Made by a program: the position numbers and the translations under genes. Below, piece by piece: positions 22,820-31,954 of a DNA stretch of 32,000 bases. This DNA comes from Planctopirus limnophila DSM 3776 (lineage in GTDB: Bacteria; Planctomycetota; Planctomycetia; Planctomycetales; Planctomycetaceae), in assembly GCF_000092105.1 (NCBI RefSeq), contig NC_014148.1:600001-632000 (forward strand), written 5' to 3'. Below the pieces are notes generated by a model. The model saw only the letters and a program-made list of their open reading frames with translations. It made no database searches and was not told the origin of the DNA. Numbering within the stretch: the stretch's first letter is position 1; every line of letters begins with the position of its first letter.

Positions 22820-24886
22820 TCAGCTGGCTGTGGCCTCGCGTTCGATGTCATCCGAGTTGAACTGGACGTCGACCAGAGTTGTCACCGGGTACCCACTGCG
22901 GGGATTCTGACCTTTGCGGAACTGCAGTCGCCAGATGAGATTGCCGTTAAGTTCATCGATACCGCCGGCCTCGGAAGGGAGAAAAGTCTCAATAGACTCT
23001 CCCGGTGCGAGCGCAATCCCCAGGGGCATGTTGGCAATCGACACTTCATCTTGCAGAGGGAGTTCAAAAAGATTGATCACACCGGTATCTGACGCCAGTT
23101 GATCGGCCCACTTGATGAACTGATTGGCACGACTGCCAAATCGTCGATCACGAAAAAATACCAGCTCTCGATCCAAAGGGATAATGGTCTGATCCCGGCT
23201 GACATTCTTGAATCGAACGAGCAGCTTCAGAACTGGCTCGGTTGTTTCTGATGAGGAGTTCGAGGCATTCTGCACGATGCTGATCGGGCCGCGAGTGACT
23301 TTCAGTGGAGTCAATTCGATGTTGCCGAAGCGACGCGTCTGATTCAGTTTGAGGGTGTGTAGCGGGGCCACACGATTGTCGGGATTGATGAGTGTGACTG
23401 AGATGCCGGTGGCGGGCGGTTTGATATCCGGCAGGCTTTCGAGTTGATGGTAAGGTTGTCTCATGTATTGCACGATGAAAAAGAGAAGTGCAAGAGTCGA
23501 GGCACTGGCATAGCCCGCCAGCAGGAGAAAGAGTTGCCTGGAGACGACCTCTTCTTTTCGGAGAGATGCAGGATTCTCCGGAAAAGCGTCGGCAGTTCCG
23601 GCCGATAAACTTCCGACTGGCACAGGTTGCCTCGAGAACTGAAAATTACCCTCCTGAACTTTGTCTCCTGATCGTTTTTCTGATGTAGTTCCAGTGGAAA
23701 CCAGAGTGAGATCTTCACCGGTCGGAAAAGGTTGGGCCAGTTGGGAGAAGCTGGATAGCTGTTGGACATCCAGATTCGTCTCGGGGGTTTGTGCAGCCAC
23801 TAACGGCTGATCAAGATTTGAGAGAAAAGCGAGCGATTGATCTTCGGCGGAGTTGATTTCCGTACCTGCGGAGATCGATGGCGCATTTGATGTGGCGACG
23901 GCTGGGAAATCGGGGGTTGCTGAATCTCCGTGACCTTGCGTCGTTACGTCAACAGTCATCGAAGGTTCTGTGAGATTCATGGCAGGCTCTGCTGTCATGA
24001 GCCCAACGCCGGCTGTCTGTCGAATGAGTTCGGCCAGTTGTGGTGATGACTGGGAGAAGTGATCTGTTTCCGGATCGCTGGTATGAAGATCGTTGCTGAG
24101 GGATGGATCGATCGTTGTGGCTATGGTGTGGCCTGGTAGACCAGCCGGAGAACTATAGCTGTCATCTGCAAGTGTTGGATTTAGAGTCTCTTCAGTCACG
24201 GCAGGGAATGATTCACTGATTTCCTGCAAACTGGAATGGGGGGCGATCACTGGCTGTGAGTCGGGTATGAAGTCGAACACCACCTCTTCTTCCGGCTCGC
24301 TGGTCACGGCATGGGCTGGTTCAAAAGAAGGCATGCCAGGAAGAGATTCTGCCGGCACTGTTTCCGCGATGATTGATCCCAGACTTGGAATGGGGAGCTC
24401 ATCCATCCCGGGAAGATGTGGGCTCGGAAATACAAAAGACTGCAAATCATCATGATGTTCGCCAGGGCCTGAGGGCTCTGTCGAGGATGGAACAGTCTGG
24501 AGAAAATCGAAGTTGACGGTCGCCGGACTTGTTGCGCCTGTCGGGCTGTCGATAGCAGGTATGAACGGAGGCAAGAAATCTTTTGAGGCCATCGGGGAGG
24601 AAGTTGTATTGGTCGAAAAATCAGGCTGAGGTATGGATGACAGAAAATCCGGGATTGATGCTGATCCAGGGAAATTCTTGGCAGGGGCACCAAGCTGAGA
24701 AAAATCAAATGTCGAATCGATGCTCTCTGCTTCGGAACTCACCGGAGCGACAGGCTCGGACTCCACGGGGATTTCTGATTGAACTTCGAGATGGGCACCG
24801 CACTCGGGGCACTCCACAACCACATTTCCTTCGGCCTCGACCATCATCGGGTTTTGACAGGAGCCGCAGATAATCTCAAATGGCAT
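22820..24886 (-). CDS. Zinc-ribbon / disordered linker / single-TM / C-terminal domain protein
   Basis: 688 aa. The N-terminus has CGSC...(16 aa)...CPEC (a zinc ribbon). About 400 aa of Pro/Ser/Thr/Glu-rich low complexity follow. One TM helix (LFLLLAGYASASTLALLFFIV) precedes a folded C-terminal domain of about 200 aa. Confidence 0.65.
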   Translation of the reverse strand: MPFEIICGSCQNPMMVEAEGNVVVECPECGAHLEVQSEIPVESEPVAPVSSEAESIDSTFDFSQLGAPAKNFPGSASIPDFLSSIPQPDFSTNTTSSPMASKDFLPPFIPAIDSPTGATSPATVNFDFLQTVPSSTEPSGPGEHHDDLQSFVFPSPHLPGMDELPIPSLGSIIAETVPAESLPGMPSFEPAHAVTSEPEEEVVFDFIPDSQPVIAPHSSLQEISESFPAVTEETLNPTLADDSYSSPAGLPGHTIATTIDPSLSNDLHTSDPETDHFSQSSPQLAELIRQTAGVGLMTAEPAMNLTEPSMTVDVTTQGHGDSATPDFPAVATSNAPSISAGTEINSAEDQSLAFLSNLDQPLVAAQTPETNLDVQQLSSFSQLAQPFPTGEDLTLVSTGTTSEKRSGDKVQEGNFQFSRQPVPVGSLSAGTADAFPENPASLRKEEVVSRQLFLLLAGYASASTLALLFFIVQYMRQPYHQLESLPDIKPPATGISVTLINPDNRVAPLHTLKLNQTRRFGNIELTPLKVTRGPISIVQNASNSSSETTEPVLKLLVRFKNVSRDQTIIPLDRELVFFRDRRFGSRANQFIKWADQLASDTGVINLFELPLQDEVSIANMPLGIALAPGESIETFLPSEAGGIDELNGNLIWRLQFRKGQNPRSGYPVTTLVDVQFNSDDIEREATAS

Positions 24887-25115: not shown

Positions 25116-26753
25116 TTACAGTTCGATCGCTTCCACTTCAGCCACGAATCGCTGGTTGTTGTCAGCGAGGAATGCACTGATCACGTTGAACACGGCGTCA
25201 CTGAAGCCACCGATGTTCATGATGTCAGTTCGCTCACAAGCCTGGACTGTCTGGTACGGCTGCAAGTCGATGTTAATCAACTTCGGTGGGGCAGCTTTTC
25301 GGCTCAGCTTTCGCTGGTTCGATGAAAAAGCTTCCCAGGCCGTCATCACACCGGTTGAACCGTGCCGTCCTGTTCCGACCCAACTCTCGTTATCGCTCAC
25401 GAGAACCATGCCGGCGAACTTTCGTCTCGCATACTTCTGGTTGGCAACAACCAGTGGCAGCGAACAATCCGTTCCGCCACCGCCGTACTTCGCCAATCGC
25501 TGAGCAATGCTCAGGATCGAATCGTTGGGATCGATCTTCACATCGTAAGCCGACGTATCGAACGGAATCACAACGCTGGCCGGGTTACGCCTGAGGATCG
25601 CTGCTGCGAACAGTGCTGCCACGTCGATGCAGCGCATCTTCGAAGTTGCACCTCGTCCACGGTTCCCAGTGACCGGGCTGCTCATTGATCCAGATGTATC
25701 CAGACCAATCACCACCGGTCCCGGCAACTCCGGTACGTTTCCACAGGCGATCTCGGCGGCCTTATGCAGTGCAGTCTTGATCTTCTGCGGAACGTTGTCG
25801 TCTGCGTTCAAGTACGCAGCAAAGTACTGGTACGGGAACTGCTTGGAGCGTTGAATCTCCGTCTTGTCAGCGATCCGGTCAGCCACGTAATCAACCATTG
25901 CACTTGTGGCGAGCACATCGTGTCGCAGCAAAGTGTTCAAGTTCATACGTAGTGCCTGCGGACCCATCTTGCGAGCCAGAACTGCCCAAACCTTCGGTCC
26001 CCTGGCGGCATCGGACAACAAGTCCCAGCGGACGATGTCGAGTCCACCAGCGATCAAGGCCTGCGCTTCTTCGCTTTCCGACTTGCGGTACGCGATCAGC
26101 GACTGAACTTCGACCGGCAGGTCGGCTTCCGTGGCGGGTGCCCACTTGTCGATGCTCTTATCGGTCAACCAACCGAACATCGCCCGGCGAGCGTTGTCCT
26201 TAGGTGTCGGTCGAGCCATACGCAGGATATCCCGCAAGCTCGGATCGTTACCGATAGACGCGCTCAACAGCTTTCCAACCGAGGCGGTGTTTAGCCAACG
26301 CTGGAAGGCTCGCTGCACAGAGCTCGACAAGCCAACGCGACTCTTACCGGCCTTGTTCTTGAACTGACCTGAGCGAATCATCTGGAACACAGTTCGCAGA
26401 ACGCGACCGTTGTCGACCACGCGATCGAAGACGCGATGCATCAACTCGGTATCACGAACTGACAGCGCGACCAGCAATGCAGCCGGCATGTCTTTCATGA
26501 ACGCTTTCTCACGAGCATAGAGAGCCAGCTTCGCCAGGTACTGGTTGTCGTCGACTGTGTCGATCAACTTGAGCACTTCGTCGAGCTGTGATTCTGCAGT
26601 ACTGTAGAACGCGTTGTTGAAGGTGCCGGTAGCAGCCACCTGGGCCAGCGCGTGTTTAGGTTCGAGTTGATATGCGAGGCCACCGGCTTCGTTGACGGCG
26701 TTGGCCTTCGGGAGTCGGCCAAGTATGCTTGCGAAAAGAGACATGTTTGCCAT
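25116..26753 (-). CDS. rsr: Ro 60-kDa autoantigen orthologue (Rsr): TROVE domain plus vWA domain
   Basis: 545 aa. The N-terminal text ([30 protein letters not shown]; [20 protein letters not shown]) is typical of bacterial Ro/TROVE proteins. The C-terminal vWA domain has the MIDAS motif [12 protein letters not shown]. Confidence 0.85.
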
Positions 26754-26771
26754 AGTGGAATTGTGAAGTTT

Positions 26772-26789
26772 GAAGTTCGAAGTTTGAAA
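26772..26789. repeat. Left arm of an 18-bp perfect inverted repeat bracketing the four-helix-bundle gene
   Basis: GAAGTTCGAAGTTTGAAA is the exact reverse complement of 27187..27204. It belongs to the same family as the palindromes in the tRNA-array spacers. Confidence 0.9.
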
Positions 26790-26837
26790 CCGTAAGATGA
26801 CGGCGCGAGTCAGTAAGTTTGAATAGTCGAAGGTAAT

Positions 26838-27185
26838 ATGAAGAGCGATTTACCTGATAGAACGTTCGCGTTTGCAGAAAGAATTGTGCGGTTTTGTATG
26901 TTCTTGGAGCAAAATGGCAGAGTGTCAACAACATTGGCAACGCAACTGCTTAGGTCGGGTACATCGGTGGGAGCCAACGTTGAGGAAGCTGGAGCATCAG
27001 AGAGCCGCAAAGACTTCATTCACAAGTATGCAATCGCTTGCAAAGAGGCACGCGAGTCTCATTACTGGCTTCGTCTATTGGCCGTGTCAGAGGTCGTTCC
27101 AAAAGATCGATTAGAACTACTCACGAGTGAAGCAAATGAACTCATCGCTATTTTGACAACGATCATCAAGAAGTCGCGAGAATGA
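26838..27185 (+). CDS. Four-helix-bundle protein (23S rRNA intervening-sequence protein family)
   Basis: 115 aa. The text F..RI..F...L......[17 protein letters not shown]....S.KDFIHK..IA.KEARES.YWLRLL is diagnostic of this family. It is the only + strand gene in the island. Confidence 0.85.
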
Positions 27186-27186
27186 A

Positions 27187-27204
27187 TTTCAAACTTCGAA
27201 CTTC
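27187..27204. repeat. Right arm of the 18-bp inverted repeat
   Basis: TTTCAAACTTCGAACTTC begins 2 nt after the four-helix-bundle stop codon. Confidence 0.9.
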
Positions 27205-27486
27205 CCATTTTGAACTTCGTCGGTGTACTCTGAATCAGCAGGCAATCATTATCTCGGCTTGAAAATGTTGGAACGAGGTATGAACAAGAGTTGCCTTTCG
27301 GCAATACGGACTTCCGACTTCAAGCAACATTGTCACTCGACCGTTGACAGGCATGTCTATCTTTGAAAAGACTCGCATGCCATTCACTAGCGGGTCACCC
27401 CGCAATCGCTACCTTAGGCCCGTCATGGAATCCTGTCCGTCAGTTCCAGCCCTTGTTGGACTCATTGATGAGATGGAAGGTTCGCT

Positions 27487-27723
27487 TCACTTCAGCGATC
27501 TTGAAGGCATTAAAGCCGGAATCCGGTCCATGTTCGCATCGACGAGTTCCTCGATAATGCTCCCTAGAGTGGTTCTGTTGCCAGAGCTGAAGGGTAGATT
27601 CGCGTCAAGGTCGATAAGCATGCAGTGCCGATGCGTATTATATGGACGTTTGGTCTTTTCCAAGCCATATCCGTGATTCTTGTACTGAAGCGAATGGCGC
27701 CATCGATGTTTCTCACTCGTCAT
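27487..27723 (-). CDS. Hypothetical small ORF overlapping the RNA ligase stop (possibly a gene remnant)
   Basis: 78-aa ORF whose ATG overlaps the ligase 3' end by 11 nt. No recognisable motif. Other frames further downstream on the - strand (lower coordinates) give only short open stretches, so this may be a decayed gene. Confidence 0.25.
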   Translation of the reverse strand: MTSEKHRWRHSLQYKNHGYGLEKTKRPYNTHRHCMLIDLDANLPFSSGNRTTLGSIIEELVDANMDRIPALMPSRSLK

Positions 27724-28774
27724 ACTTCACAAGAAAGGCGGGGTTAATCGCTTTAAAGCTTAATCGTCCCCCCGTGTCCGGCTCGAATGTTTCCGATATG
27801 GGACGGAGAACGATTCCTTCGCGCAAGGTGGATGAGTTCAAAACACTTTTTCCTTCGGCGAGCTTAATCAGTTCGTCGATGGAATGGTTCAGTGTCACCT
27901 TTTCGAGGAATGGTACCGCCACGAGACCAAGCGACTTAATCACCTCTTGCATTTGATCGAAGTCCAACAGCATCCCGGTCGTTAAGTTCACGACATTAAA
28001 AATTCTCAGTGTCACAAACTCGAGCCGGTATTTATTGCCCTGGATTCCCGGGCCAATCATCTCTCCTTGAACCGCCAGGTCGAAGCCTAGTTGCTTTGAC
28101 ATTTCAGCCAGCTTTTCCCTCAAATGGAATGACTCGGCAATGGCGACATACTTCGATGTGCCATCCATCTCGTCAATCCACTGATTGCGGCTGCAGATGC
28201 CGAACTGAGACTGATAATGGAATGCCGTGAAGGAACTTCCATCGAGCTTTTCGGTGACAATCAACTCTTTTCCTTTGTGTCGCTCGAGTGCGTCTGCGAG
28301 CAGCTGAACACGAGTTTCATCTGTTTTGGGCACAAAGCTTGGAAACGGACCTTTAATCTTGCCAACCATACCAGCAGGTATAGGGGGCTCCCATTTCACG
28401 ATGCCGAGCTCGGCAGTGACTTCAGTGCCGAGCGGCAGGTGATCACCGTTCGGCACCAGGGAAACGGGAAAACAAATTCCTTGTGAATATTGTCCGCGGA
28501 GTTTGATTGTGCGAATTCGGAAACCAGCTGGTACCGCAATGCGACCGGTCGCATCGATTTGTGCGGGCTTGAAGCAATTGCTACGGAGAAACTCGAATTC
28601 TGAACGCTCGGGAAGGAGTGAGTCGATTTCACAATAGATGATTTTGTCACCGACGCGATACTCTCCGCGCTTGACCACAACCGCCCAACCCAAAATCCTT
28701 GCCAGTTCAATCGAGTCTGCATTTGTGATTGGCTCGATGGCTGAAATTGTCTGTATGGTTGCCAGTTTTCGCAT
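27713..28774 (-). CDS. ATP-dependent RNA ligase, DraRnl (DRB0094) type
   Basis: The ORF opens at 28813, but MRKLATIQTISAIEPITNADSIELARILGWAVVVKRGEYRVGDKIIYCEIDSLLP (ATG at 28774) is the characteristic N-terminal OB-like module of this family. The nucleotidyltransferase motif I lysine lies in TEKLDGSS. Confidence 0.8.
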   Translation of the reverse strand: MRKLATIQTISAIEPITNADSIELARILGWAVVVKRGEYRVGDKIIYCEIDSLLPERSEFEFLRSNCFKPAQIDATGRIAVPAGFRIRTIKLRGQYSQGICFPVSLVPNGDHLPLGTEVTAELGIVKWEPPIPAGMVGKIKGPFPSFVPKTDETRVQLLADALERHKGKELIVTEKLDGSSFTAFHYQSQFGICSRNQWIDEMDGTSKYVAIAESFHLREKLAEMSKQLGFDLAVQGEMIGPGIQGNKYRLEFVTLRIFNVVNLTTGMLLDFDQMQEVIKSLGLVAVPFLEKVTLNHSIDELIKLAEGKSVLNSSTLREGIVLRPISETFEPDTGGRLSFKAINPAFLVKYDE

Positions 28775-28826
28775 GTTTTTTGAGATTTGGAGTAAAGGAA
28801 GATGAGCAGTCATTTTGGTTTACGAG

Positions 28827-28896
28827 CAGGAACGCAGTGATTCGAACACTGTCCATCGGTTTTGGAGGCCGAGTCCGCTCCCAGGCGAACATTCCT
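28827..28896 (-). tRNA. tRNA-Trp (anticodon CCA), no encoded CCA end
   Basis: Manual cloverleaf: AGGAATG T TCGC-CTGGGA-GCGG AC TCGGC CTCCAAA ACCGA TGGA CAGTG TTCGAAT CACTG CGTTCCT G. It has the A1-U72 pair and G73 typical of bacterial tRNA-Trp. The D region is compact and there is a C31xA39 mismatch. Confidence 0.7.
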
Positions 28897-29222: not shown

Positions 29223-29753
29223 TCATGCATCATCCTGACTTTTCGAAACAGGCTCGGGTCCACTCCTGCTCAGACGATCGACAAGTGCGAGAATCGTGGG
29301 AGTCCTGTAACTTCCGTGCATCTCGCTCACGCACCTTGCCGCTTCGCTTTCGTTGGTTCCCACTGCTGTGATCCAGAGTGGTCTCGAACTTTTCCCCCGA
29401 TAAACTTCAATCGCGTTTTTTGCTGTCGCAAACGAAGTCTTGGCCACACCGATCACCGGGACTTGACCTTCAAGTAACTCGAACAGGTGAGCACCCAACC
29501 CCCTTTTTCCGTTGGCATCGAGCCATACGTATCCGTCGACAACGATAAGGCTTGGTTTGGCAACAAGCTGATTCAGTACTGCCTTTATGCATGGCAGTTC
29601 GCGTTTGTAAAATTCTCCAGGGATGTAATCTTCGATGCTCGGAATCTCGACCGTGTGACTCCCCTGTGGCAACTCTGCCTTCCAATCGGAGATTGTGACG
29701 CATGCCGCCAGCGCAGATTGCACTTGATATCCGACATCGACGCAAGCGATCAC
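29223..29753 (-). CDS. nfi: Endonuclease V family protein (short form)
   Basis: 176 aa, GTG start preceded by AAAGGAGG. It aligns by eye to EndoV blocks: VDVGY (catalytic Asp), YIPGEFYKRELP (Glu), LIVVDGYVW (Asp), PVIGVAKT (Lys), PLWITAVG. It lacks about 30 N-terminal residues of E. coli Nfi. Confidence 0.7.
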   Translation of the reverse strand: MIACVDVGYQVQSALAACVTISDWKAELPQGSHTVEIPSIEDYIPGEFYKRELPCIKAVLNQLVAKPSLIVVDGYVWLDANGKRGLGAHLFELLEGQVPVIGVAKTSFATAKNAIEVYRGKSSRPLWITAVGTNESEAARCVSEMHGSYRTPTILALVDRLSRSGPEPVSKSQDDA

Positions 29754-29772: not shown

Positions 29773-29917
29773 AACACCTGACGAGGTTGTGGCCAGAGTT
29801 ATTACCTCGACGGACGCAAAGCGACCTTCGAGGTTCCGGCCCATTGTTACATTAACGAGTGGACCGGGCGGGAATCGAACCTGCTAAACCATGTACTCCG
29901 AACCGGCAGTCAAGTGT
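29773..29917 (-). ncRNA. Structured RNA B: Y-RNA-like stem plus permuted tRNA-like domain (paralogue of RNA A)
   Basis: On the - strand the parts run in this order. Basal helix ACACUUGAC / GUCAGGUGU (9 bp, one G-U). Internal loop UGCCGGU / CCACAACCUC. Helix UCGGAGU / ACUCUGG. T-arm GCAGG-UUCGAUU-CCCGC. The acceptor 3' strand CCGGUCC pairs with GGGCCGG across an 18-nt closing loop. A long hairpin (CCUCGA...UCGAGG) replaces the D-arm. The RNA ends 20 nt before the EndoV start codon. Confidence 0.5.
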
Positions 29918-29918
29918 T

Positions 29919-30082
29919 GTTTCAAAACGATCGATGAAGAGATGTGTCAGAGGGTTTACGGCGCTCTACCACTGAGCTACGGCGCAATGAACTAAATCAA
30001 AGTTGCGCCAGTGGGATTCGAACCCACGACTTCCGGCTTATCAGGCTGTGCTCCAACTCGGCAGTCGATCGTTGTTTGAGAC
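29919..30082 (-). ncRNA. Structured RNA A: candidate YrlA-type Y RNA with a circularly permuted tRNA-like domain
   Basis: On the - strand the parts run in this order. Basal helix GUCUCAA-[AC bulge]-AACGAUCGA / UCGAUCGUU-UUGAAAC. Internal loop CUGCCGAG / CACAUCUCUUCA. Helix UUGGAG / CUCUGA. Anticodon-loop-like heptamer CUGAUAA. T-arm GUGGG-UUCGAAU-CCCAC. The acceptor 3' strand UGGCGCA is closed by a 17-nt loop onto the 5' strand UGCGCCG (7 bp). A fully canonical U8 A9 and D-arm GCUC-AGUGGUA-GAGC follow. Confidence 0.55.
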
Positions 30083-30156
30083 TTTAGGATTCAGGTTCCA
30101 GGTATCAGGTGTGGATTTCCTGAAGACTGACACCTGACTCCTAAAGACTGTTCTAG

Positions 30157-30228
30157 TAGCTCGACCAGGAGTCGAACCTGGAACTTCTCGTTAGAAGCGA
30201 GAGGTGATATCCACTTCACCATCGAGCT
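30157..30228 (-). tRNA. tRNA-Arg (anticodon UCU)
   Basis: AGCTCGA TG GTGA-AGTGGATA-TCAC C TCTCG CTTCTAA CGAGA AGTT CCAGG TTCGACT CCTGG TCGAGCT A. All stems are perfect. No CCA is encoded. Confidence 0.85.
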
Positions 30229-30234
30229 GCGAGC

Positions 30235-30279
30235 AGTCTTGAGGAGGGAGACTTGAGTCTGAAGAAAATCCTCAAGACT
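30235..30279. repeat. Spacer hairpin (11-bp perfect inverted repeat)
   Basis: AGTCTTGAGGA (30235..30245) pairs with TCCTCAAGACT (30269..30279), between tRNA-Ser(GCU) and tRNA-Arg(UCU). Confidence 0.8.
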
Positions 30280-30309
30280 CACATCTCACTCCTCACTACT
30301 GTTTTTGAG

Positions 30310-30395
30310 CGGAAGGTAAGGGATTCGAACCCATATAGCACGAATGCTGCACTGTTTAGCAAACAGGCCCGGCCAACCATATCCGGCTACCTTCC
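30310..30395 (-). tRNA. tRNA-Ser (anticodon GCU), type II
   Basis: 86 nt. Acceptor GGAAGGT/ACCTTCC, G73, anticodon loop TTGCTAA. The long variable arm is GCAGCATTCGTGCTAT (AGCA-TTCG-TGCT) and the T-loop is TTCGAAT. Position 8 is A, and there are single mismatches in the T and anticodon stems. Confidence 0.75.
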
Positions 30396-30398
30396 AAT

Positions 30399-30474
30399 TC
30401 AGGTTTCTGACCTCGGGTTTCAGAATTCAGGTTTTGAAATTCCTGAAGCCTGATAACTGACTCCTGAAACCTGA
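30399..30474. repeat. Spacer hairpins of the CAGGTTTC/GAAACCTG family
   Basis: Outer stem TCAGGTTTC (30399..30407) / GAAACCTGA (30466..30474). An inner stem TTCAGG...CCTGAA is also present. Confidence 0.7.
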
Positions 30475-30478
30475 TGAG

Positions 30479-30552
30479 TGACGCAGGCGGGATTTGAACC
30501 CGCAATCACGAAGGTTTAAGCTTCGCCGCTATTCCAATTCGCGTACCGCGTC
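30479..30552 (-). tRNA. Type I (short variable arm) tRNA with Leu anticodon UAA
   Basis: GACGCGG TA CGCG-AATTGGAAT-AGCG G CGAAG CTTAAAC CTTCG TGATT GCGGG TTCAAAT CCCGC CTGCGTC A. 74 nt with a 5-nt variable loop. U8, A14 and G18G19 are present. Confidence 0.7.
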
Positions 30553-30570
30553 GGAAAAAGTTTGAATTGA

Positions 30571-30620
30571 GAAGTGTGAAGTGTGAAATTTCAAACGTCG
30601 AACTTCACAATTCACACTTC
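30571..30620. repeat. Spacer palindrome of the GAAGT/ACTTC family
   Basis: 17-bp stem GAAGTGTGAAGTGTGAA / TTCACAATTCACACTTC (1 mismatch) with a 16-nt loop. Confidence 0.8.
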
Positions 30621-30624
30621 CAAA

Positions 30625-30697
30625 CGGCCTGCCAAGGAATCGAACCTTGTCTGAAAGTTTCGAAGACTCTCGTGCGAATCCATCACACTCGCGGGCC
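30625..30697 (-). tRNA. tRNA-Arg (anticodon UCG), non-canonical details
   Basis: GGCCCGC GA GTGT-GATGGATTC-GCAC G AGAGT CTTCGAA ACTTT CAGA CAAGG TTCGATT CCTTG GCAGGCC G. It has a C5xA68 mismatch, and positions 8 and 14 are G instead of U and A. Confidence 0.6.
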
Positions 30698-30745
30698 CTA
30701 TCAACACGTATCAGGGGGAAGGCATCAGGTTTCAGGAAGAGGAAA

Positions 30746-30817
30746 TATCCTTGCCAGGAGTTGAACCTGGTCCGTAACCTTCGCAGGGTTAAATGCAGTC
30801 CCTTACACCTCAAGGAC
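30746..30817 (-). tRNA. tRNA-Arg (anticodon GCG)
   Basis: GTCCTTG AG GTGT-AAGGGACT-GCAT T TAACC CTGCGAA GGTTA CGGA CCAGG TTCAACT CCTGG CAAGGAT A. It has a G1-U72 pair and A at position 8. Confidence 0.65.
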
Positions 30818-30851
30818 ATTAAATGGAACCTGAATCCTGAAACGTGATTAG

Positions 30852-30924
30852 TGGTGCAGGGGGGATTCGAACCCACAAACACTTGTTTCTAAAACAAGCC
30901 GCTCAGCCGCTGGCGTACTGCACC
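30852..30924 (-). tRNA. Type I (short variable arm) tRNA with Leu anticodon UAG
   Basis: GGTGCAG TA CGCC-AGCGGCTG-AGCG G CTTGT TTTAGAA ACAAG TGTTT GTGGG TTCGAAT CCCCC CTGCACC A. 73 nt with a 5-nt variable loop and one U50xC64 mismatch. Confidence 0.7.
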
Positions 30925-30934
30925 GAAAGAATTG

Positions 30935-30993
30935 TGAATTGAGAAGTTAGAACTGTGAAGTGGGAAGTTTCAAACTTCAAACTTCTGAATTCA
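30935..30993. repeat. Spacer palindrome of the GAAGT/ACTTC family
   Basis: Outer stem TGAATTGAGAAGTT / AACTTCTGAATTCA (1 mismatch). The inner palindrome is GAAGTTTCAAACTTC (30964..30978). Confidence 0.75.
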
Positions 30994-31003
30994 AACTTCC
31001 GAG

Positions 31004-31078
31004 CGACCCATACCGGATTTGAACCGGTGATCTCCGCCGTGACAGGGCGGCGTCCACTCCAGGCTGGACCAATAGGCC
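31004..31078 (-). tRNA. tRNA-Asp (anticodon GUC)
   Basis: GGCCTAT TG GTCC-AGCCTGGAGT-GGAC G CCGCC CTGTCAC GGCGG AGATC ACCGG TTCAAAT CCGGT ATGGGTC G. It has G73 and two G-U pairs in the acceptor stem. Confidence 0.8.
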
Positions 31079-31089
31079 GTAAACAAAAG

Positions 31090-31161
31090 AGGCGCTACCG
31101 AGATTCGAACTCGCGATCAGCGTGTTTTGCAGACACGCCCCGCACCAAGCGGATTAGCGCC
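31090..31161 (-). tRNA. tRNA-Cys (anticodon GCA)
   Basis: Acceptor GGCGCTA/TAGCGCC with U73 (a Cys identity element). Anticodon arm CGTGT-CTGCAAA-ACACG, T-arm GCGAG-TTCGAAT-CTCGG, compact D-arm CCGC-TTGGT-GCGG. Confidence 0.75.
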
Positions 31162-31170
31162 GTGATTAAA

Positions 31171-31243
31171 TCGTCCTGGACAGACTCGAACTGTCGATCG
31201 ACTGTTTGTAAGACAGATGCCTTCGCCGCTAGGCCACAGGACG
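31171..31243 (-). tRNA. tRNA-Val (anticodon UAC)
   Basis: CGTCCTG TG GCCT-AGCGGCGA-AGGC A TCTGT CTTACAA ACAGT CGATC GACAG TTCGAGT CTGTC CAGGACG A. Confidence 0.8.
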
Positions 31244-31259
31244 ATGCGTTTAAAAAGAG

Positions 31260-31341
31260 CGGAAGACCAGGGACTCGAACCCCGAAGCGCCAGGCGCCAG
31301 CCGTTTTCAAGACGGTTTCCTCATCCAGCCGGATGTCTTCC
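31260..31341 (-). tRNA. tRNA-Ser (anticodon UGA), type II
   Basis: 82 nt. Acceptor GGAAGAC/GTCTTCC, G73, anticodon loop CTTGAAA, variable arm with stem GCGC-CTG-GCGC (loop CUG on the - strand RNA), T-arm CGGGG-TTCGAGT-CCCTG. Confidence 0.75.
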
Positions 31342-31345
31342 AGAT

Positions 31346-31401
31346 CAGGTTTCAGGCATCAGGGATCAGGCTTCAGAGCGAGAAGGGGGACCTGAAACCT
31401 G
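31346..31401. repeat. Spacer hairpin of the CAGGTTTC/GAAACCTG family
   Basis: 11-bp perfect inverted repeat CAGGTTTCAGG (31346..31356) / CCTGAAACCTG (31391..31401). Confidence 0.8.
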
Positions 31402-31414
31402 AAGTCTGGCAAAG

Positions 31415-31488
31415 GGTGACCGATCGGAATTGAACCGACATCGACCTGGTTCACAGCCAGGTTCCTGAAACCAATACAGGACGGCCAC
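31415..31488 (-). tRNA. tRNA-His (anticodon GUG)
   Basis: Acceptor GTGGCCG/CGGTCAC with C73. Anticodon arm CCTGG-CTGTGAA-CCAGG, T-arm GTCGG-TTCAATT-CCGAT. The genomic nucleotide at position -1 is U, not G. Confidence 0.75.
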
Positions 31489-31490
31489 AT

Positions 31491-31565
31491 TGCCGGAGGC
31501 AGGAATCGAACCTGCGAGCTTCTGGTTCAGAGCCAGACGCAACGACCAACAGTTGCTACTCCGGT
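31491..31565 (-). tRNA. tRNA-Gln (anticodon CUG)
   Basis: Acceptor ACCGGAG/CTCCGGC (A1xC72 unpaired). D-arm GCAA...TTGC, anticodon arm TCTGG-CTCTGAA-CCAGA, T-arm GCAGG-TTCGATT-CCTGC. Confidence 0.7.
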
Positions 31566-31582
31566 AATTTGATATCTATCAA

Positions 31583-31654
31583 CCCGGGCGGAAGGAGTTG
31601 AACCTTCATACCACTGCTTCAAAGGCAGTTGGCTTACCATTAGCCGACATCCGA
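31583..31654 (-). tRNA. tRNA-Gln (anticodon UUG)
   Basis: D-arm GGCT-AATGGTA-AGCC, anticodon arm ACTGC-CTTTGAA-GCAGT, T-arm GAAGG-TTCAACT-CCTTC. The acceptor TCGGATG/CGCCCGG is weak (one AxC mismatch and two G-U pairs). Confidence 0.6.
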
Positions 31655-31672
31655 ACAACCTTCATCAAACAG

Positions 31673-31818
31673 AGTGCCATGTCGGAGTCGAACCGACCTG
31701 ACCGAATTGGAAGGTTTTTCACGTTGTTTCATGATCGACTTCGTTGGGGAATCAATCGTTGCACAACGTGTGACTTTCCGGCCACCTTTAAAAACCTTTG
31801 CCGCTCGGCCAATGGCAC
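31673..31818 (-). tRNA. 146-nt tRNA-like gene with a structured insertion of about 75 nt in the anticodon-arm position
   Basis: Perfect 7-bp acceptor GTGCCAT/ATGGCAC. Type-II-like 5' half TGGCCGAGCGGCAAAGG. T-arm GTCGG-TTCGACT-CCGAC. Between them lies a 9-bp helix AAGGTTTTT/AAAAACCTT enclosing an 8-bp helix CACGTTGT/ACAACGTG and a 6-bp helix GATTGA/TCGATC. No 7-nt anticodon loop is identifiable. Confidence 0.45.
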
Positions 31819-31829
31819 GGTGGGAGTTT

Positions 31830-31858
31830 GAAGTTCGAAGTTTCAAACTTCGAACTTC
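31830..31858. repeat. Uninterrupted copy of the palindrome that is split around the four-helix-bundle gene
   Basis: GAAGTTCGAAGTTT-C-AAACTTCGAACTTC has 14-nt arms identical to the outer 14 nt of the arms at 26772..26789 and 27187..27204. Confidence 0.85.
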
Positions 31859-31879
31859 TCAATTCACACTTCTGAAAGG

Positions 31880-31954
31880 CTCCGGCGGCAGGAATCGAAC
31901 CTGCGTCCAGGCGATTAACAGTCGCCTTCCCGTACCAGCACAGGACCCACCGGA
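31880..31954 (-). tRNA. tRNA-Asn (anticodon GUU)
   Basis: TCCGGTG GG TCCT-GTGCTGGTAC-GGGA A GGCGA CTGTTAA TCGCC TGGAC GCAGG TTCGATT CCTGC CGCCGGA G. It has the U1-A72 pair and G73 of tRNA-Asn. Position 8 is G. Confidence 0.7.

What the first reader, a model, noticed from the sequence alone, without database searches (positions are those of the whole stretch)
29773..30082. Two tandem paralogous RNAs with circularly permuted tRNA-like domains (candidate YrlA-type Y RNAs)
In both units the T-arm comes first, then the acceptor 3' strand, a 17-18-nt closing loop, and then the acceptor 5' strand (7 bp in each). In unit A this is followed by a textbook U8-A9-D-arm (GCUCAGUGGUAGAGC). The position of the anticodon stem instead leads into a long bulged stem formed by the unit's 5' and 3' ends. 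This is the connectivity reported for YrlA Y RNAs, which bind Ro/Rsr, and an rsr gene lies 3 kb away on the same strand. Units A and B share a direct repeat (GACUGCCG). They share similar internal-loop sequences (UGCCG opposite CACAnCUC). They also keep a helix through base changes (A: UUGGAG/CUCUGA; B: UCGGAGU/ACUCUGG), which argues for a conserved fold. Unit A retains a CUGAUAA heptamer, like a tRNA-Ile(GAU) anticodon loop, suggesting descent from a tRNA. The alternative reading is genuinely permuted tRNA genes, which to my knowledge are unreported in bacteria.
Basis: partly seen in the sequence, partly recalled or inferred. Interest (0 to 1): 0.82.

Follow-up and report, generated by a model that had tools for sequence, protein, structure and literature searches.

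The report
Two tRNA-mimicking Y RNAs beside rsr
The two tandem elements are real, structured non-coding RNA genes of the known bacterial Y RNA (YrlA-like) class, which partners the Ro60/Rsr protein. They belong to a divergent planctomycete branch that standard databases miss, so this is a solid but not fundamentally new find.

Summary
On the minus strand of a Planctopirus limnophila DSM 3776 window lie two tandem RNAs: unit A at 29927-30072 and unit B at 29775-29916. They sit between a tRNA gene array and an EndoV-like gene, an Rnl5 RNA ligase gene and rsr.

Both units share a terminal stem, internal loop and second stem. In unit A this module encloses a complete, circularly permuted tRNA-like domain. 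In unit B it encloses only a T-arm and a closed 7-bp acceptor stem.

Homologues in about 60 planctomycete rsr loci support every helix by covariation (93-96% of cells paired, against 30-53% in shifted controls). All 149 best model hits lie upstream of rsr on its strand.

Rfam YrlA matches both units, but below its gathering score (37.6 and 22.6 bits against 69). The closest analogue is the Mycobacterium smegmatis YrlA/YrlB pair.

The suggested descent from tRNA-Ile(GAU) is not supported, and genuine permuted tRNA genes are very unlikely.

Rsr binding, expression and RNase P/CCA processing are inferred, not shown.

Verdict: a new, divergent member of a known kind. The context is a horizontally mobile cassette of tRNA array, Y RNAs and rsr, which I did not find described in the literature I could search. 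Interest is moderate.

The parts
29927..30072 (-). Unit A: YrlA-like Y RNA, terminal stem to terminal stem (about 146 nt; U-run follows at 29926-29924)
   Evidence: CM R1 168.7 bits. The structure is 96.1% paired in 19 homologues, and 15 of 35 pairs show compensatory change.
30051..30072 (-). Unit A, 5' half of the conserved stem module: P1 5' strand (30072-30064), loop UGCCG, P2 5' strand (30057-30051). Presumed Rsr-binding side.
   Evidence: GACUGCC and GGAG-UACA are at least 90% conserved over 150 units. This stretch aligns to the 5' GNCGAAN-G region of Rfam YrlA (shown for unit B).
29927..29952 (-). Unit A, 3' half of the stem module: P2 3' strand CUCUGAC, loop ACAUCUCUUC, P1 3' strand
   Evidence: The window copy has A where 143 of 144 units have the G of an invariant C-G pair.
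29957..30037 (-). Unit A tRNA-like domain, in order: 3-bp anticodon-stem remnant, 5-nt variable region AAGUC, T-arm 30027-30011, closed 7-bp acceptor 30010-29980 with 17-nt loop, U8A9, D-arm 29977-29963
   Evidence: Rfam YrlA model positions 23-87, 37.6 bits. Covariation in the T, acceptor, D and P3 helices.
29775..29916 (-). Unit B: second Y RNA (YrlB/Yrn1-like), terminal stem to terminal stem; followed by UUUU and the RBS of the next gene
   Evidence: R1 61.5 bits, E 2e-16. Rfam YrlA end-to-end, 22.6 bits. 94.1% paired, 9 compensatory pairs in 20 homologues.
29836..29884 (-). Unit B half-tRNA ('minihelix'): T-arm 29884-29868, plus a 7-bp acceptor 29867-29836 closed by an 18-nt loop
   Evidence: Weak similarity to the tRNA-like domain of permuted tmRNA (19-22 bits).
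29805..29833 (-). Unit B lineage-specific hairpin at the D-arm position
   Evidence: Present in only 6 of the 20 aligned B-type copies and kept paired through G-U changes. A seventh full-length copy, in L002, was not in that alignment.
27224..27257 (-). 5' remnant of a third (C-type) Y RNA, truncated where an insertion begins
   Evidence: Homology to L054/L075 breaks at 27224, inside their C-type unit. Weak R1 hit at 27157-27257.
25116..26753 (-). rsr (Ro60 orthologue, WP_041400983.1)
   Evidence: Pfam TROVE + vWA_Ro60. Full-length match to D. radiodurans Rsr 2nvo, E 8.5e-19. Named.
30156..31954 (-). Co-oriented tRNA gene array (14 genes in the window; it continues beyond 32000) ending 84 nt upstream of unit A
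   Evidence: L001 shows 20 array tRNAs in total.
29223..29753 (-). EndoV-like ORF (Plim_0509); its RBS AAGGAGG starts 10 nt after unit B
   Evidence: Pfam Endonuclease_5, 5.9e-13; sequence.
27713..28813 (-). ATP-dependent RNA ligase, Rnl5 / DRB0094 family
   Evidence: Pfam PHA02142 OB + RNA_ligase. Naegleria RNA ligase 5cot, E 8e-62..
28826..28896 (-). tRNA-Trp(CCA), between the Y RNAs and rsr
   Evidence: Conserved at this position in many loci.

Best explanation
Units A and B are two paralogous bacterial Y RNA genes of the YrlA-like kind, belonging to the rsr (Ro60) locus of Planctopirus limnophila.

Each RNA is modular.
- Its 5' and 3' ends pair into a conserved stem module: P1, an asymmetric internal loop (UGCCG opposite CA..CUUC), and P2 followed by UACA. 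By analogy with other Y RNAs, this module is the Rsr-binding site (inferred).
- The centre is a variable effector module.
- In unit A the centre is a complete tRNA mimic wired as a tRNA opened at the anticodon loop and closed at the acceptor end. It keeps every canonical tertiary-contact nucleotide.
- In unit B the centre is only the T-arm/acceptor minihelix.

Likely biogenesis (inferred): the RNAs are transcribed with the upstream tRNA array and the downstream EndoV-like, ligase and rsr genes, then excised by tRNA-processing enzymes. Both units have a 7-bp acceptor stem followed by a conserved purine-C-U. They are therefore predicted to be cut by RNase P at the 5' side of the acceptor 5' strand and finished with CCA. 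This would give two-piece RNAs, as shown experimentally for M. smegmatis YrlA.

Likely function (inferred): once bound to Rsr, they gate or tether it to tRNA-recognising or RNA-decay/repair factors for quality control of structured RNA, most plausibly tRNA.
For: Shown here:
1. The fold is real. A-type alignment: 96.1% of cells paired against 30-53% in shifted controls, 15 of 35 pairs with compensatory change, 0 of 500 shuffles as good. B-type: 94.1% against 31-49%, 9 compensatory pairs. All 147 distinct units: 93.3% against 30-43%, 31 of 35 pairs compensatory (that alignment was fitted to the model).
2. Rfam YrlA is the best non-tRNA match.
3. Genetic linkage to rsr. Both strands and both 10-kb flanks were searched, yet 149 of 149 hits are upstream and co-oriented, with a median distance of 227 nt.
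4. Modularity. Only the two ends are conserved across 150 units, while the centres vary: tRNA-like, T-arm only, or unrelated hairpins.
5. Rsr is a full-length Ro60 orthologue.
6. After the acceptor 3' strand, R-C-U is kept in 17 of 19 A-type copies. In the 20 B-type copies the C is kept in 19 and the U in 18. The rest of the loop varies. Five of 9 array tRNAs have the same CU trailer.

From the literature:
- The YrlA criteria, the RNase P cleavage and CA addition of the 7-bp-acceptor M. smegmatis YrlA, and its T-arm-only partner YrlB made from one precursor upstream of rsr (PMC4201824).
- YrlA as a circularly permuted tRNA mimic, occasionally next to non-RtcB ligases (10.1101/312249).
Against: - No expression, Rsr-binding or processing data exist for this organism.
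- Both units are below Rfam's gathering score (37.6 and 22.6 against 69).
- The 5' motif is AUCGACUG / CUUGACUG, not a strict GNCGAAN0-1G.
- Unit A's thermodynamic fold is unremarkable (z -1.9), and its minimum-energy structure does not form the D-arm.
- The window's copy of unit A carries two private substitutions at positions at least 90% conserved in the presumed Rsr-binding module. One is U->C in GGAGUACA. The other is G->A, which breaks a C-G pair found in 143 of 144 units.
- This strain has also lost three rsr-proximal Y RNAs, so the system may be decaying here.
- No promoter or terminator was detected, although the scan is not tuned to Planctomycetes.
Confidence: 0.8

Rival explanations
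1. Cis-acting processing or leader elements. On this view the tRNA-like folds serve only as RNase P/RNase Z 'punctuation' that separates the tRNA array from the downstream mRNA (EndoV-like, ligase, rsr), or as a leader regulating rsr. They would not be stable trans-acting Rsr partners.
For: - The units sit exactly between the last array tRNA and the RBS of the next ORF.
- In most loci the units lie immediately upstream of rsr, at a median of 227 nt.
- The 7-bp acceptor plus RCU looks like a tRNA-processing substrate.
Against: - The most conserved part of the family is the terminal stem module, not the tRNA-like part. Many units have no tRNA-like part at all, so punctuation cannot explain them.
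- That stem module aligns with the Ro-binding end of Rfam YrlA.
- M. smegmatis Y RNAs are also cut from a leader precursor and are still stable Rsr-bound RNAs.
Confidence: 0.1
2. Decayed tRNA pseudogenes, or rearranged tRNA fragments, at the edge of a fast-evolving tRNA array.
For: - They are adjacent to a tRNA array.
- The D-arm and T-arm are textbook tRNA sequences.
- Unit B lacks a D-arm.
- tRNA models make chimeric calls across adjacent units in relatives.
Against: - Pseudogenes would not keep 93-96% pairing with dozens of compensatory changes across orders of Planctomycetes.
- They would not keep a non-tRNA terminal stem with residues at least 90% conserved.
- They would not occur in loci that have no tRNA array, such as L035, L037, L047, L053 and L062.
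Confidence: 0.03
3. Genuine circularly permuted tRNA genes. Their transcripts would be circularised (for example by the neighbouring ligase) and re-opened at the acceptor loop to give a functional tRNA.
For: - Unit A has the order 3' half, loop, 5' half.
- Its tRNA core is complete.
- It has a CUGAUAA heptamer at the anticodon-loop position.
- An RNA ligase gene is nearby.
Against: - No anticodon arm can be rebuilt. Only 3 bp of stem remain, and the strands continue into the conserved P2/P1 stem.
- The heptamer is present in 3 of 19 homologues and is replaced elsewhere by GCUUCAGGAGC and others.
- The region is not similar to the array's tRNA-Ile(GAU).
- B-type and short units lack most tRNA parts.
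- The ligase and EndoV genes are absent from most loci that carry the RNAs.
- ARAGORN finds no tRNA here.
Confidence: 0.02
4. A two-piece (permuted) tmRNA-like gene.
For: Unit B's T-arm and acceptor weakly match the tRNA-like domain of permuted and beta-proteobacterial tmRNA (17-22 bits).
Against: - The scores are far below the gathering scores (47 and 84).
- Only the generic T-arm/acceptor portion matches.
- There is no tag reading frame or pseudoknots, and the unit is only about 142 nt.
- A standard one-piece tmRNA exists in a related planctomycete locus (L063).
Confidence: 0.01

Closest known systems
Mycobacterium smegmatis YrlA + YrlB (Chen et al. 2014, PMC4201824)
   Same: - Two tandem Y RNAs upstream of rsr on its strand.
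- The first, about 147 nt, has a full tRNA-like domain and a 7-bp acceptor stem.
- The second keeps only a T-arm.
- Both come from one precursor.
- The acceptor is followed by a C, so trimming plus CA addition gives a CCA end.
   Different: - The sequence is too diverged for Rfam YrlA to reach its threshold.
- The 5' motif is (A/C)U(C/U)GACUG rather than GNCGAAN0-1G.
- Unit A has an extra 11-12-nt insertion between P2 and the anticodon-stem remnant.
- The units lie 3 kb from rsr, with EndoV-like, tRNA-Trp and Rnl5 ligase genes between.
- They abut a tRNA array.
- Processing and Rsr binding are untested here.
Salmonella Typhimurium YrlA (Rfam RF02553; crystal structure PDB 6cu1, bioRxiv 10.1101/312249)
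   Same: - The same connectivity: Ro-binding stem, V region, T-arm, closed acceptor, D-arm, back to the stem.
- The same conserved T-loop and D-loop residues and tertiary-contact nucleotides.
   Different: - The Salmonella acceptor stem-loop is short and is not an RNase P substrate.
- It is encoded 3' of rsr in an RtcR-controlled rsr-yrlBA-rtcBA operon.
- Here the units lie 5' of rsr, the ligase is Rnl5 rather than RtcB, and no RtcR-type regulator was seen.
Deinococcus radiodurans Yrn1
   Same: Like unit B, it is a Y RNA whose effector module has a T-arm but no clear D-arm. D. radiodurans also encodes the founding DRB0094 (Rnl5) ligase family member.
   Different: The order and orientation of the arms differ, and Chen et al. 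regard Yrn1 as independently evolved. Yrn1 tethers Rsr to PNPase, which is shown experimentally. No such data exist here.
Circularly permuted tRNA genes of the red alga Cyanidioschyzon merolae (my own knowledge: Soma et al. 2007)
   Same: The gene order is 3' half, then linker, then 5' half of a tRNA.
   Different: Those genes rebuild a complete tRNA with an anticodon arm through a circular intermediate. Here the anticodon arm is replaced by a conserved Ro-type stem, and no functional tRNA can be assembled.
Phage and jumbo-phage RNA-repair modules: tRNA sets + RNA ligases + TROVE protein with a tRNA-like partner (PMC7824862)
   Same: Many tRNA genes, an ATP-dependent RNA ligase and a Ro/TROVE protein with a tRNA-like RNA occur together on mobile DNA.
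   Different: Here the module is chromosomal or on an integrative element in Planctomycetes, with up to five or six Y RNA paralogues per locus.

Membership tests
YrlA-type bacterial Y RNA (Chen et al. 2014; Rfam RF02553) | Encoded within about 4 kb of the Ro60/rsr gene on the same strand | tested here: met
   Units A and B lie 3.0-3.3 kb upstream of rsr (26753) on the minus strand. Family-wide, 146 of 149 hits are within 4 kb and all are co-oriented.
YrlA-type bacterial Y RNA (Chen et al. 2014; Rfam RF02553) | GNCGAAN0-1G motif near the 5' end (putative Ro60 contact) | tested here: inconclusive
   The aligned position reads AUCGACUG in unit A and CUUGACUG in unit B. That is 4 of the 6 specified bases in unit A and 3 of 6 in unit B. 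The local variant GACUGCC is at least 90% conserved in 150 units.
YrlA-type bacterial Y RNA (Chen et al. 2014; Rfam RF02553) | Nearly invariant T stem-loop and D stem-loop, with an acceptor-like stem-loop between them | tested here: met
   Unit A has all three, with compensatory changes. Unit B has the T-arm and acceptor but NO D-arm, so it is a YrlB/Yrn1-like partner rather than a YrlA.
YrlA-type bacterial Y RNA (Chen et al. 2014; Rfam RF02553) | Nucleotides for tRNA tertiary contacts (U8:A14, G15:C48, G18G19:U55C56, U54:A58, G26, G46) | tested here: met
   Read directly from unit A: U8 A9, D-loop AGUGGUA, variable region AAGUC, T-loop UUCGAAU. The three-dimensional fold was not tested.
YrlA-type bacterial Y RNA (Chen et al. 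2014; Rfam RF02553) | Score at or above Rfam's gathering threshold (69 bits) | tested here: not met
   Unit A scores 37.6 bits (local) and unit B 22.6 bits. None of about 35 related units in 9 loci passes. This is a database threshold, not a biological criterion.
YrlA-type bacterial Y RNA (Chen et al. 2014; Rfam RF02553) | Physically bound by Rsr; modified by TruB/DusA | not testable with these tools
   This needs immunoprecipitation and modification mapping.
Y RNA in general | 5' and 3' ends pair into a conserved, loop-interrupted stem, and the central module is variable | tested here: met
   Over 147 distinct units, P1 is 92.7% paired and P2 89.7%, with 13 of 16 pairs compensatory. Only the two ends are conserved.
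Circularly permuted tRNA gene | The two halves can be rejoined into a complete tRNA with an anticodon stem-loop | tested here: not met
   Only a 3-bp stem remnant is present. The anticodon-loop-like heptamer is in 3 of 19 homologues. ARAGORN makes no call.
Two-piece tmRNA | tRNA-like domain plus tag-encoding reading frame and pseudoknots; model score above threshold | tested here: not met
   Scores are 17-22 bits against 47 and 84, covering the T-arm/acceptor only. ARAGORN finds no tmRNA.

The most novel reading that the evidence does not exclude
The Y RNAs are built-in parts of a horizontally mobile 'translation-rescue' cassette: a near-complete tRNA set, up to five or six Y RNA paralogues and rsr, with or without an RNA ligase and EndoV-like gene. 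On this reading they are co-transcribed with the tRNAs. [quoted passage not shown] Their role would be to point Rsr at damaged or foreign tRNAs during phage-host or element-host conflict. That would give the long-sought effector logic of the tRNA-like Y RNA domain a tractable genetic system.
Probability: 0.2. Interest if true: 0.65.

Novelty: new member of a known kind. Interest (0 to 1): 0.36.

Why it matters
Bacterial Y RNAs that mimic tRNA have been known since 2014, but what their tRNA-like domain does is still unknown.

- This locus extends the class to Planctomycetes, through a clade that the curated Rfam model does not capture.
- Its acceptor stems are full-length (7 bp), so these RNAs should be processed like tRNAs. 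Until now this has been seen only in M. smegmatis.
- It places the Y RNAs directly at the end of a large tRNA array, on what looks like a mobile cassette shared between planctomycete orders.
- P. limnophila appears among the planctomycetes for which genetic tools have been described (PMC4910669, seen only as a search listing). If so, the link between Ro60, Y RNAs and tRNA surveillance could be tested there.
- For annotation: these elements are missed by standard pipelines, and tandem copies can even be mis-called as intron-containing tRNAs.

Tried and rejected
- Rfam at gathering thresholds gave only tRNAs in the window, and no YrlA in 9 related loci.
- Descent from tRNA-Ile(GAU) is rejected. 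The heptamer is not conserved. The array's tRNA-Ile(GAU) ranks 11th of 21 in similarity, and the best match, tRNA-Ile(UAU), shares only generic D-arm sequence.
- The tmRNA reading is rejected because only the generic T-arm/acceptor portion matches.
- Plastid-ycf2 and psbl-rps4 'hits' on the plus strand are reverse-complement echoes of tRNA-like arms.
- The sigma-70 promoter and intrinsic-terminator scan found nothing relevant near the units. This is uninformative for Planctomycetes.
- Single-sequence folding of unit A does not recover the cloverleaf and is only marginally more stable than shuffles. The structure rests on covariation instead.
- The idea that EndoV and the Rnl5 ligase are core partners is rejected, because they are confined to the Planctopirus lineage plus L005.
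- Literature searches for Y RNAs or tRNA arrays in Planctomycetes found nothing.
- Several sources were not held, so I cannot say whether P. limnophila was already on the 2014 list of 254 species. These are the 2014 supplementary species tables, Burroughs & Aravind 2016, and the Sim/Wolin reviews.
Full report
WHERE AND WHAT

The window is from Planctopirus limnophila DSM 3776, genes Plim_0504 to Plim_0509 (exact protein look-up). Its left two-thirds is ordinary chromosome, including SecY and RpoA.

The finding lies on the minus strand. Read 5'->3' on that strand, the region runs as follows.
- A co-oriented array of 14 tRNA genes, 31954->30156. The same contig in another assembly shows 20 array tRNAs.
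- Unit A, 30072->29927.
- A 10-nt spacer.
- Unit B, 29916->29775.
- UUUU, then an AAGGAGG ribosome-binding site and the GUG start of an EndoV-like ORF, 29753->29223.
- tRNA-Trp.
- An ATP-dependent RNA ligase of the Rnl5/DRB0094 family, 28813->27713. It matches the Naegleria RNA ligase structure at E 8e-62.
- A plus-strand '23S rRNA intervening-sequence protein' gene.
- rsr, 26753->25116. It has TROVE and Ro60-vWA domains and is collinear over its full length with D. radiodurans Rsr (2nvo), E 8.5e-19.

OBSERVATION CHECK

Unit A contains, in order:
- a terminal 9-bp stem, P1;
- the loop UGCCG;
- a 7-bp P2, GUUGGAG/CUCUGAC;
- an internal loop;
- a 3-bp remnant of an anticodon stem, CGG/CCG;
- a 5-nt variable region, AAGUC;
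- a T-arm, GUGGG-UUCGAAU-CCCAC;
- a 7-bp acceptor stem closed by a 17-nt loop;
- U8-A9;
- a D-arm, GCUC-AGUGGUA-GAGC.

The nucleotides that make tRNA's tertiary contacts are all in place: U8, A14, G15/C48, G18G19, U54-U55-C56, A58, G26 and G46. I read these directly from the sequence.

Unit B has the same P1, loop and P2 module, a T-arm with one conserved A.C mismatch, and a 7-bp acceptor closed by an 18-nt loop. It has no D-arm and no anticodon-stem remnant. A 29-nt hairpin sits where the D-arm would be.

The shared string GACUGCCG-N2-U-N-GGAG occurs exactly twice in 32 kb, once per unit.

IS IT MORE THAN CHANCE, AND IS THE FOLD REAL?

Rfam's YrlA model (RF02553) is the best non-tRNA match to both units.
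- Unit A scores 37.6 bits, E 3e-7, over model positions 23-87, which is the tRNA-like core.
- Unit B scores 22.6 bits, E 0.007, aligned end to end over positions 1-114. That alignment includes the 5' CgaAUGC and 3' AcUuGuc stem motifs.
- Both are below the family's gathering score of 69, so a standard annotation run reports nothing here.

I fetched 79 loci encoding relatives of the Rsr protein, all from Planctomycetes. BLAST found diverged copies of both units upstream of rsr in many of them.

On an alignment of 19 A-type copies, the structure I proposed is 96.1% paired. Controls in which partners are slid by 1-3 columns give 30-53%. Fifteen of 35 pairs show changes on both sides, including 6 of 7 acceptor pairs and 2 of 3 anticodon-stem pairs. 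No shuffle out of 500 reaches any of the measures.

Twenty B-type copies give 94.1% against 31-49%, with 9 compensatory pairs.

A covariance model built from the A-type alignment finds 184 matches in 1 Mb of loci. In the window it scores unit A at 168.7 bits. It scores unit B, which was not used to build it, at 61.5 bits, E 2e-16.

On the 147 distinct best matches, pairing is 93.3% against 30-43%, and 31 of 35 pairs are compensatory. That alignment is fitted to the model, so it leans towards the structure.

Single-sequence folding is less persuasive. Unit A has z = -1.9 and its minimum-energy fold lacks the D-arm. Unit B has z = -3.7.

LINK TO rsr AND MODULAR ARCHITECTURE

Both strands and up to 10 kb on each side of rsr were searched. 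All 149 non-window hits in the top 150 lie upstream of rsr on the rsr strand. Of these, 146 are within 4 kb, and the median distance is 227 nt. Fifty-nine of the 68 loci with more than 300 nt of upstream sequence have at least one hit. This is the criterion Chen et al. used to define YrlA candidates (PMC4201824).

Loci carry one to six units. Across 150 units, the only columns shared by more than 80% of sequences are the two ends:
- 5' ...GACUGCCG-NUUYGGAG-UACAU;
- 3' CUCUG..CA..CUUCGUC...UUU.

GACUGCC, GGA, UAC, CUC and CUUCGU are at least 90% conserved. The centres differ: a full tRNA mimic, a T-arm only, or unrelated hairpins. A conserved terminal stem plus a variable central module is the Y RNA design (10.1101/312249).

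MOST LIKELY MECHANISM

Shown:
- These are structured RNAs under purifying selection.
- They are genetically coupled to a Ro60 orthologue.
- They have YrlA connectivity.

Inferred:
- The conserved stem module binds Rsr.
- The tRNA-like centre recruits or mimics a substrate of tRNA-recognising factors.
- The RNAs gate or tether Rsr, as in the D. radiodurans Rsr/Y RNA/PNPase machine.

One specific inference concerns processing. Chen et al. showed that M. smegmatis YrlA, the only YrlA they examined with a 7-bp acceptor stem, is cut by RNase P and then acquires CA to form a CCA end. They also showed that its partner YrlB keeps only a T-arm, and that both are processed from one precursor upstream of rsr.

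Units A and B reproduce that arrangement.
- Both have 7-bp acceptors.
- The three nucleotides after the acceptor 3' strand are purine-C-U in 17 of 19 A-type copies. In the 20 B-type copies the C is kept in 19 and the U in 18. The rest of the loop is free to vary.
- Five of 9 tRNAs in the adjacent array have the same N73-CU trailer, and none encodes CCA.

I therefore predict RNase P cleavage at 29987|29986 (A) and 29843|29842 (B), trimming back to R-C, and CA addition. The products would be two-piece RNAs held together by the stems.

Co-transcription with the array and the downstream genes is suggested only by the tight spacing and the shared strand. The promoter and terminator scan found nothing useful.

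CAVEATS SPECIFIC TO THIS STRAIN

The window's unit A has two private substitutions at near-invariant positions of the presumed Rsr-binding module.
- GGAGUACA has become GGAGCACA.
- CUUCGUC has become CUUCAUC. This breaks a C-G pair present in 143 of 144 units.

In the closest relatives, three further Y RNA units lie just upstream of rsr. These relatives are a Planctomyces sp. MAG (L054) and P. hydrillae (L075). In the window, that roughly 450-nt stretch is replaced by 468 nt carrying the intervening-sequence-protein gene. Only the first 34 nt of the first unit survive, at 27257-27224. The Y RNA complement of DSM 3776 is therefore reduced and may be decaying.

RIVALS

- Decayed tRNA pseudogenes. 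This is excluded by the covariation, by the conserved non-tRNA stem, and by the presence of the units in loci without any tRNA array.
- True permuted tRNA genes. No anticodon arm can be rebuilt. The CUGAUAA heptamer is in only 3 of 19 homologues. The domain is no closer to the array's tRNA-Ile(GAU) than to most other tRNAs. The ligase and EndoV genes are lineage-specific.
- A tmRNA-like gene. Only the generic T-arm/acceptor matches.
- Pure processing 'punctuation' or a leader element. This cannot explain the many units without any tRNA-like part, and it is not exclusive of Y RNA function. It remains the only rival with appreciable probability.

COMPARISON AND NOVELTY

The kind is known. YrlA RNAs were reported next to rsr in 254 bacterial species and 22 phages. 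They are described as circularly permuted tRNA mimics, and are occasionally found next to non-RtcB ligases.

What is new is membership. This is a divergent planctomycete clade that is invisible to Rfam's threshold. It has an insertion between P2 and the anticodon-stem remnant, a variant 5' motif, and full-length acceptor stems.

I could not check whether P. limnophila was already in the 2014 species tables, because they are not held.

I rate it a new member of a known kind, of moderate interest.

CONTEXT WORTH RECORDING

- In many loci the A-type unit directly follows a co-oriented array of 16-32 tRNA genes, which usually ends with tRNA-Arg(UCU). tRNA-Trp, with or without tRNA-Thr, lies between the Y RNAs and rsr.
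- Rsr is 84-93% identical between Planctopirus (order Planctomycetales) and Pirellulaceae genomes and MAGs (order Pirellulales).
- Neighbouring genes in those loci include HNH endonucleases, transposases, a Shedu-like nuclease, ParB-like proteins and large serine recombinases.
- One IMG/VR contig carries 32 tRNAs, four Y units and a 90%-identical rsr next to a serine integrase.
- Together this looks like a horizontally mobile cassette of tRNA array, Y RNAs and rsr. It resembles the RNA-repair and tRNA-provisioning modules noted in jumbo phages (PMC7824862).
- I found no description of such a cassette in Planctomycetes in the literature I could search.

Noticed in passing
window 26756-27223 (with the + strand ORF 26838-27185): A 468-nt segment carrying a '23S rRNA intervening-sequence protein' (four-helix-bundle, bAvd-like) gene replaces about 450 nt. 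In the closest relatives (L054 8736-9184, L075 9549-9998) that stretch holds three more Y RNA units. The breakpoint falls inside the first of those units. A second IVP gene lies just past the window end (L001 4393-4752), and IVP genes recur in other rsr loci (L010 8314-8727, L017).
   Followed up: partly
window 30076-30155, 30229-30308, 30396-30477, 30553-30624 (minus strand): The spacers between tRNAs of the array each fold into a long, nearly perfect hairpin of about 25-30 bp (-26 to -40 kcal/mol, z -3.9 to -6.7). They may be RNase III-type processing sites or folding insulators. No such hairpin separates unit A from unit B.
   Followed up: partly
loci L005, L012, L014, L024, L025, L027, L036, L054, L060, L075, L081/L082; window 30156-31954 and beyond: Large co-oriented tRNA arrays (16-32 genes, a near-complete anticodon set, many with unusual D-arms) are linked to rsr in Planctomycetes of two orders, with Rsr 84-93% identical between them. 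In most of these loci the array runs directly into the A-type Y RNA. In L012 it lies downstream of rsr on the other strand. Serine recombinases, ParB-like genes, transposases, HNH and Shedu-like genes lie nearby, and one IMG/VR contig carries the whole set. It looks like a mobile tRNA-array/Y RNA/rsr cassette.
   Followed up: partly
L047 8820-8967; L062 8912-9048: The Rfam tRNA model makes above-threshold 'tRNA' calls of 137-148 nt. Each joins the acceptor-5'/D-arm half of one Y RNA unit to the T-arm/acceptor-3' half of the next unit. This is an annotation artefact that tandem permuted mimics can cause.
   Followed up: no
window 30050 and 29935 (minus strand; unit A): Two strain-specific substitutions fall at positions at least 90% conserved in the family. 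One is U->C in GGAGUACA. The other is G->A, which breaks the C-G pair closing P1 and is the only such break among 144 units. An independent read-set assembly (Logan SRR017854, L001) is identical, so this is probably not an assembly error.
   Followed up: partly
window 29223-29753 and 27713-28813 (minus strand): A short (176-aa) EndoV-like protein and an Rnl5-family ligase sit between the Y RNAs and rsr, but only in the Planctopirus lineage and L005. From general knowledge, EndoV leaves 3'-OH and 5'-phosphate ends, which is the chemistry Rnl5 ligases seal. The two could therefore form a nick-and-reseal pair. This was not tested.
   Followed up: no
window 22820-24886 (minus strand): A 688-aa protein directly downstream of rsr (Plim_0504) has only a weak N-terminal zinc-ribbon match. 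It is conserved only within Planctopirus. Its function is unknown.
   Followed up: no
L054 8702-9164; L075 9515-9978; L010 9525-9977: The rsr-proximal paralogues fall into three further types. The C-type is about 142-147 nt with T-arm and D-arm. The D-type is 116 nt with two unrelated hairpins. The E-type is 92-105 nt. All share the same terminal stem module, so Planctopirus relatives encode five distinct Y RNAs per locus.
   Followed up: partly
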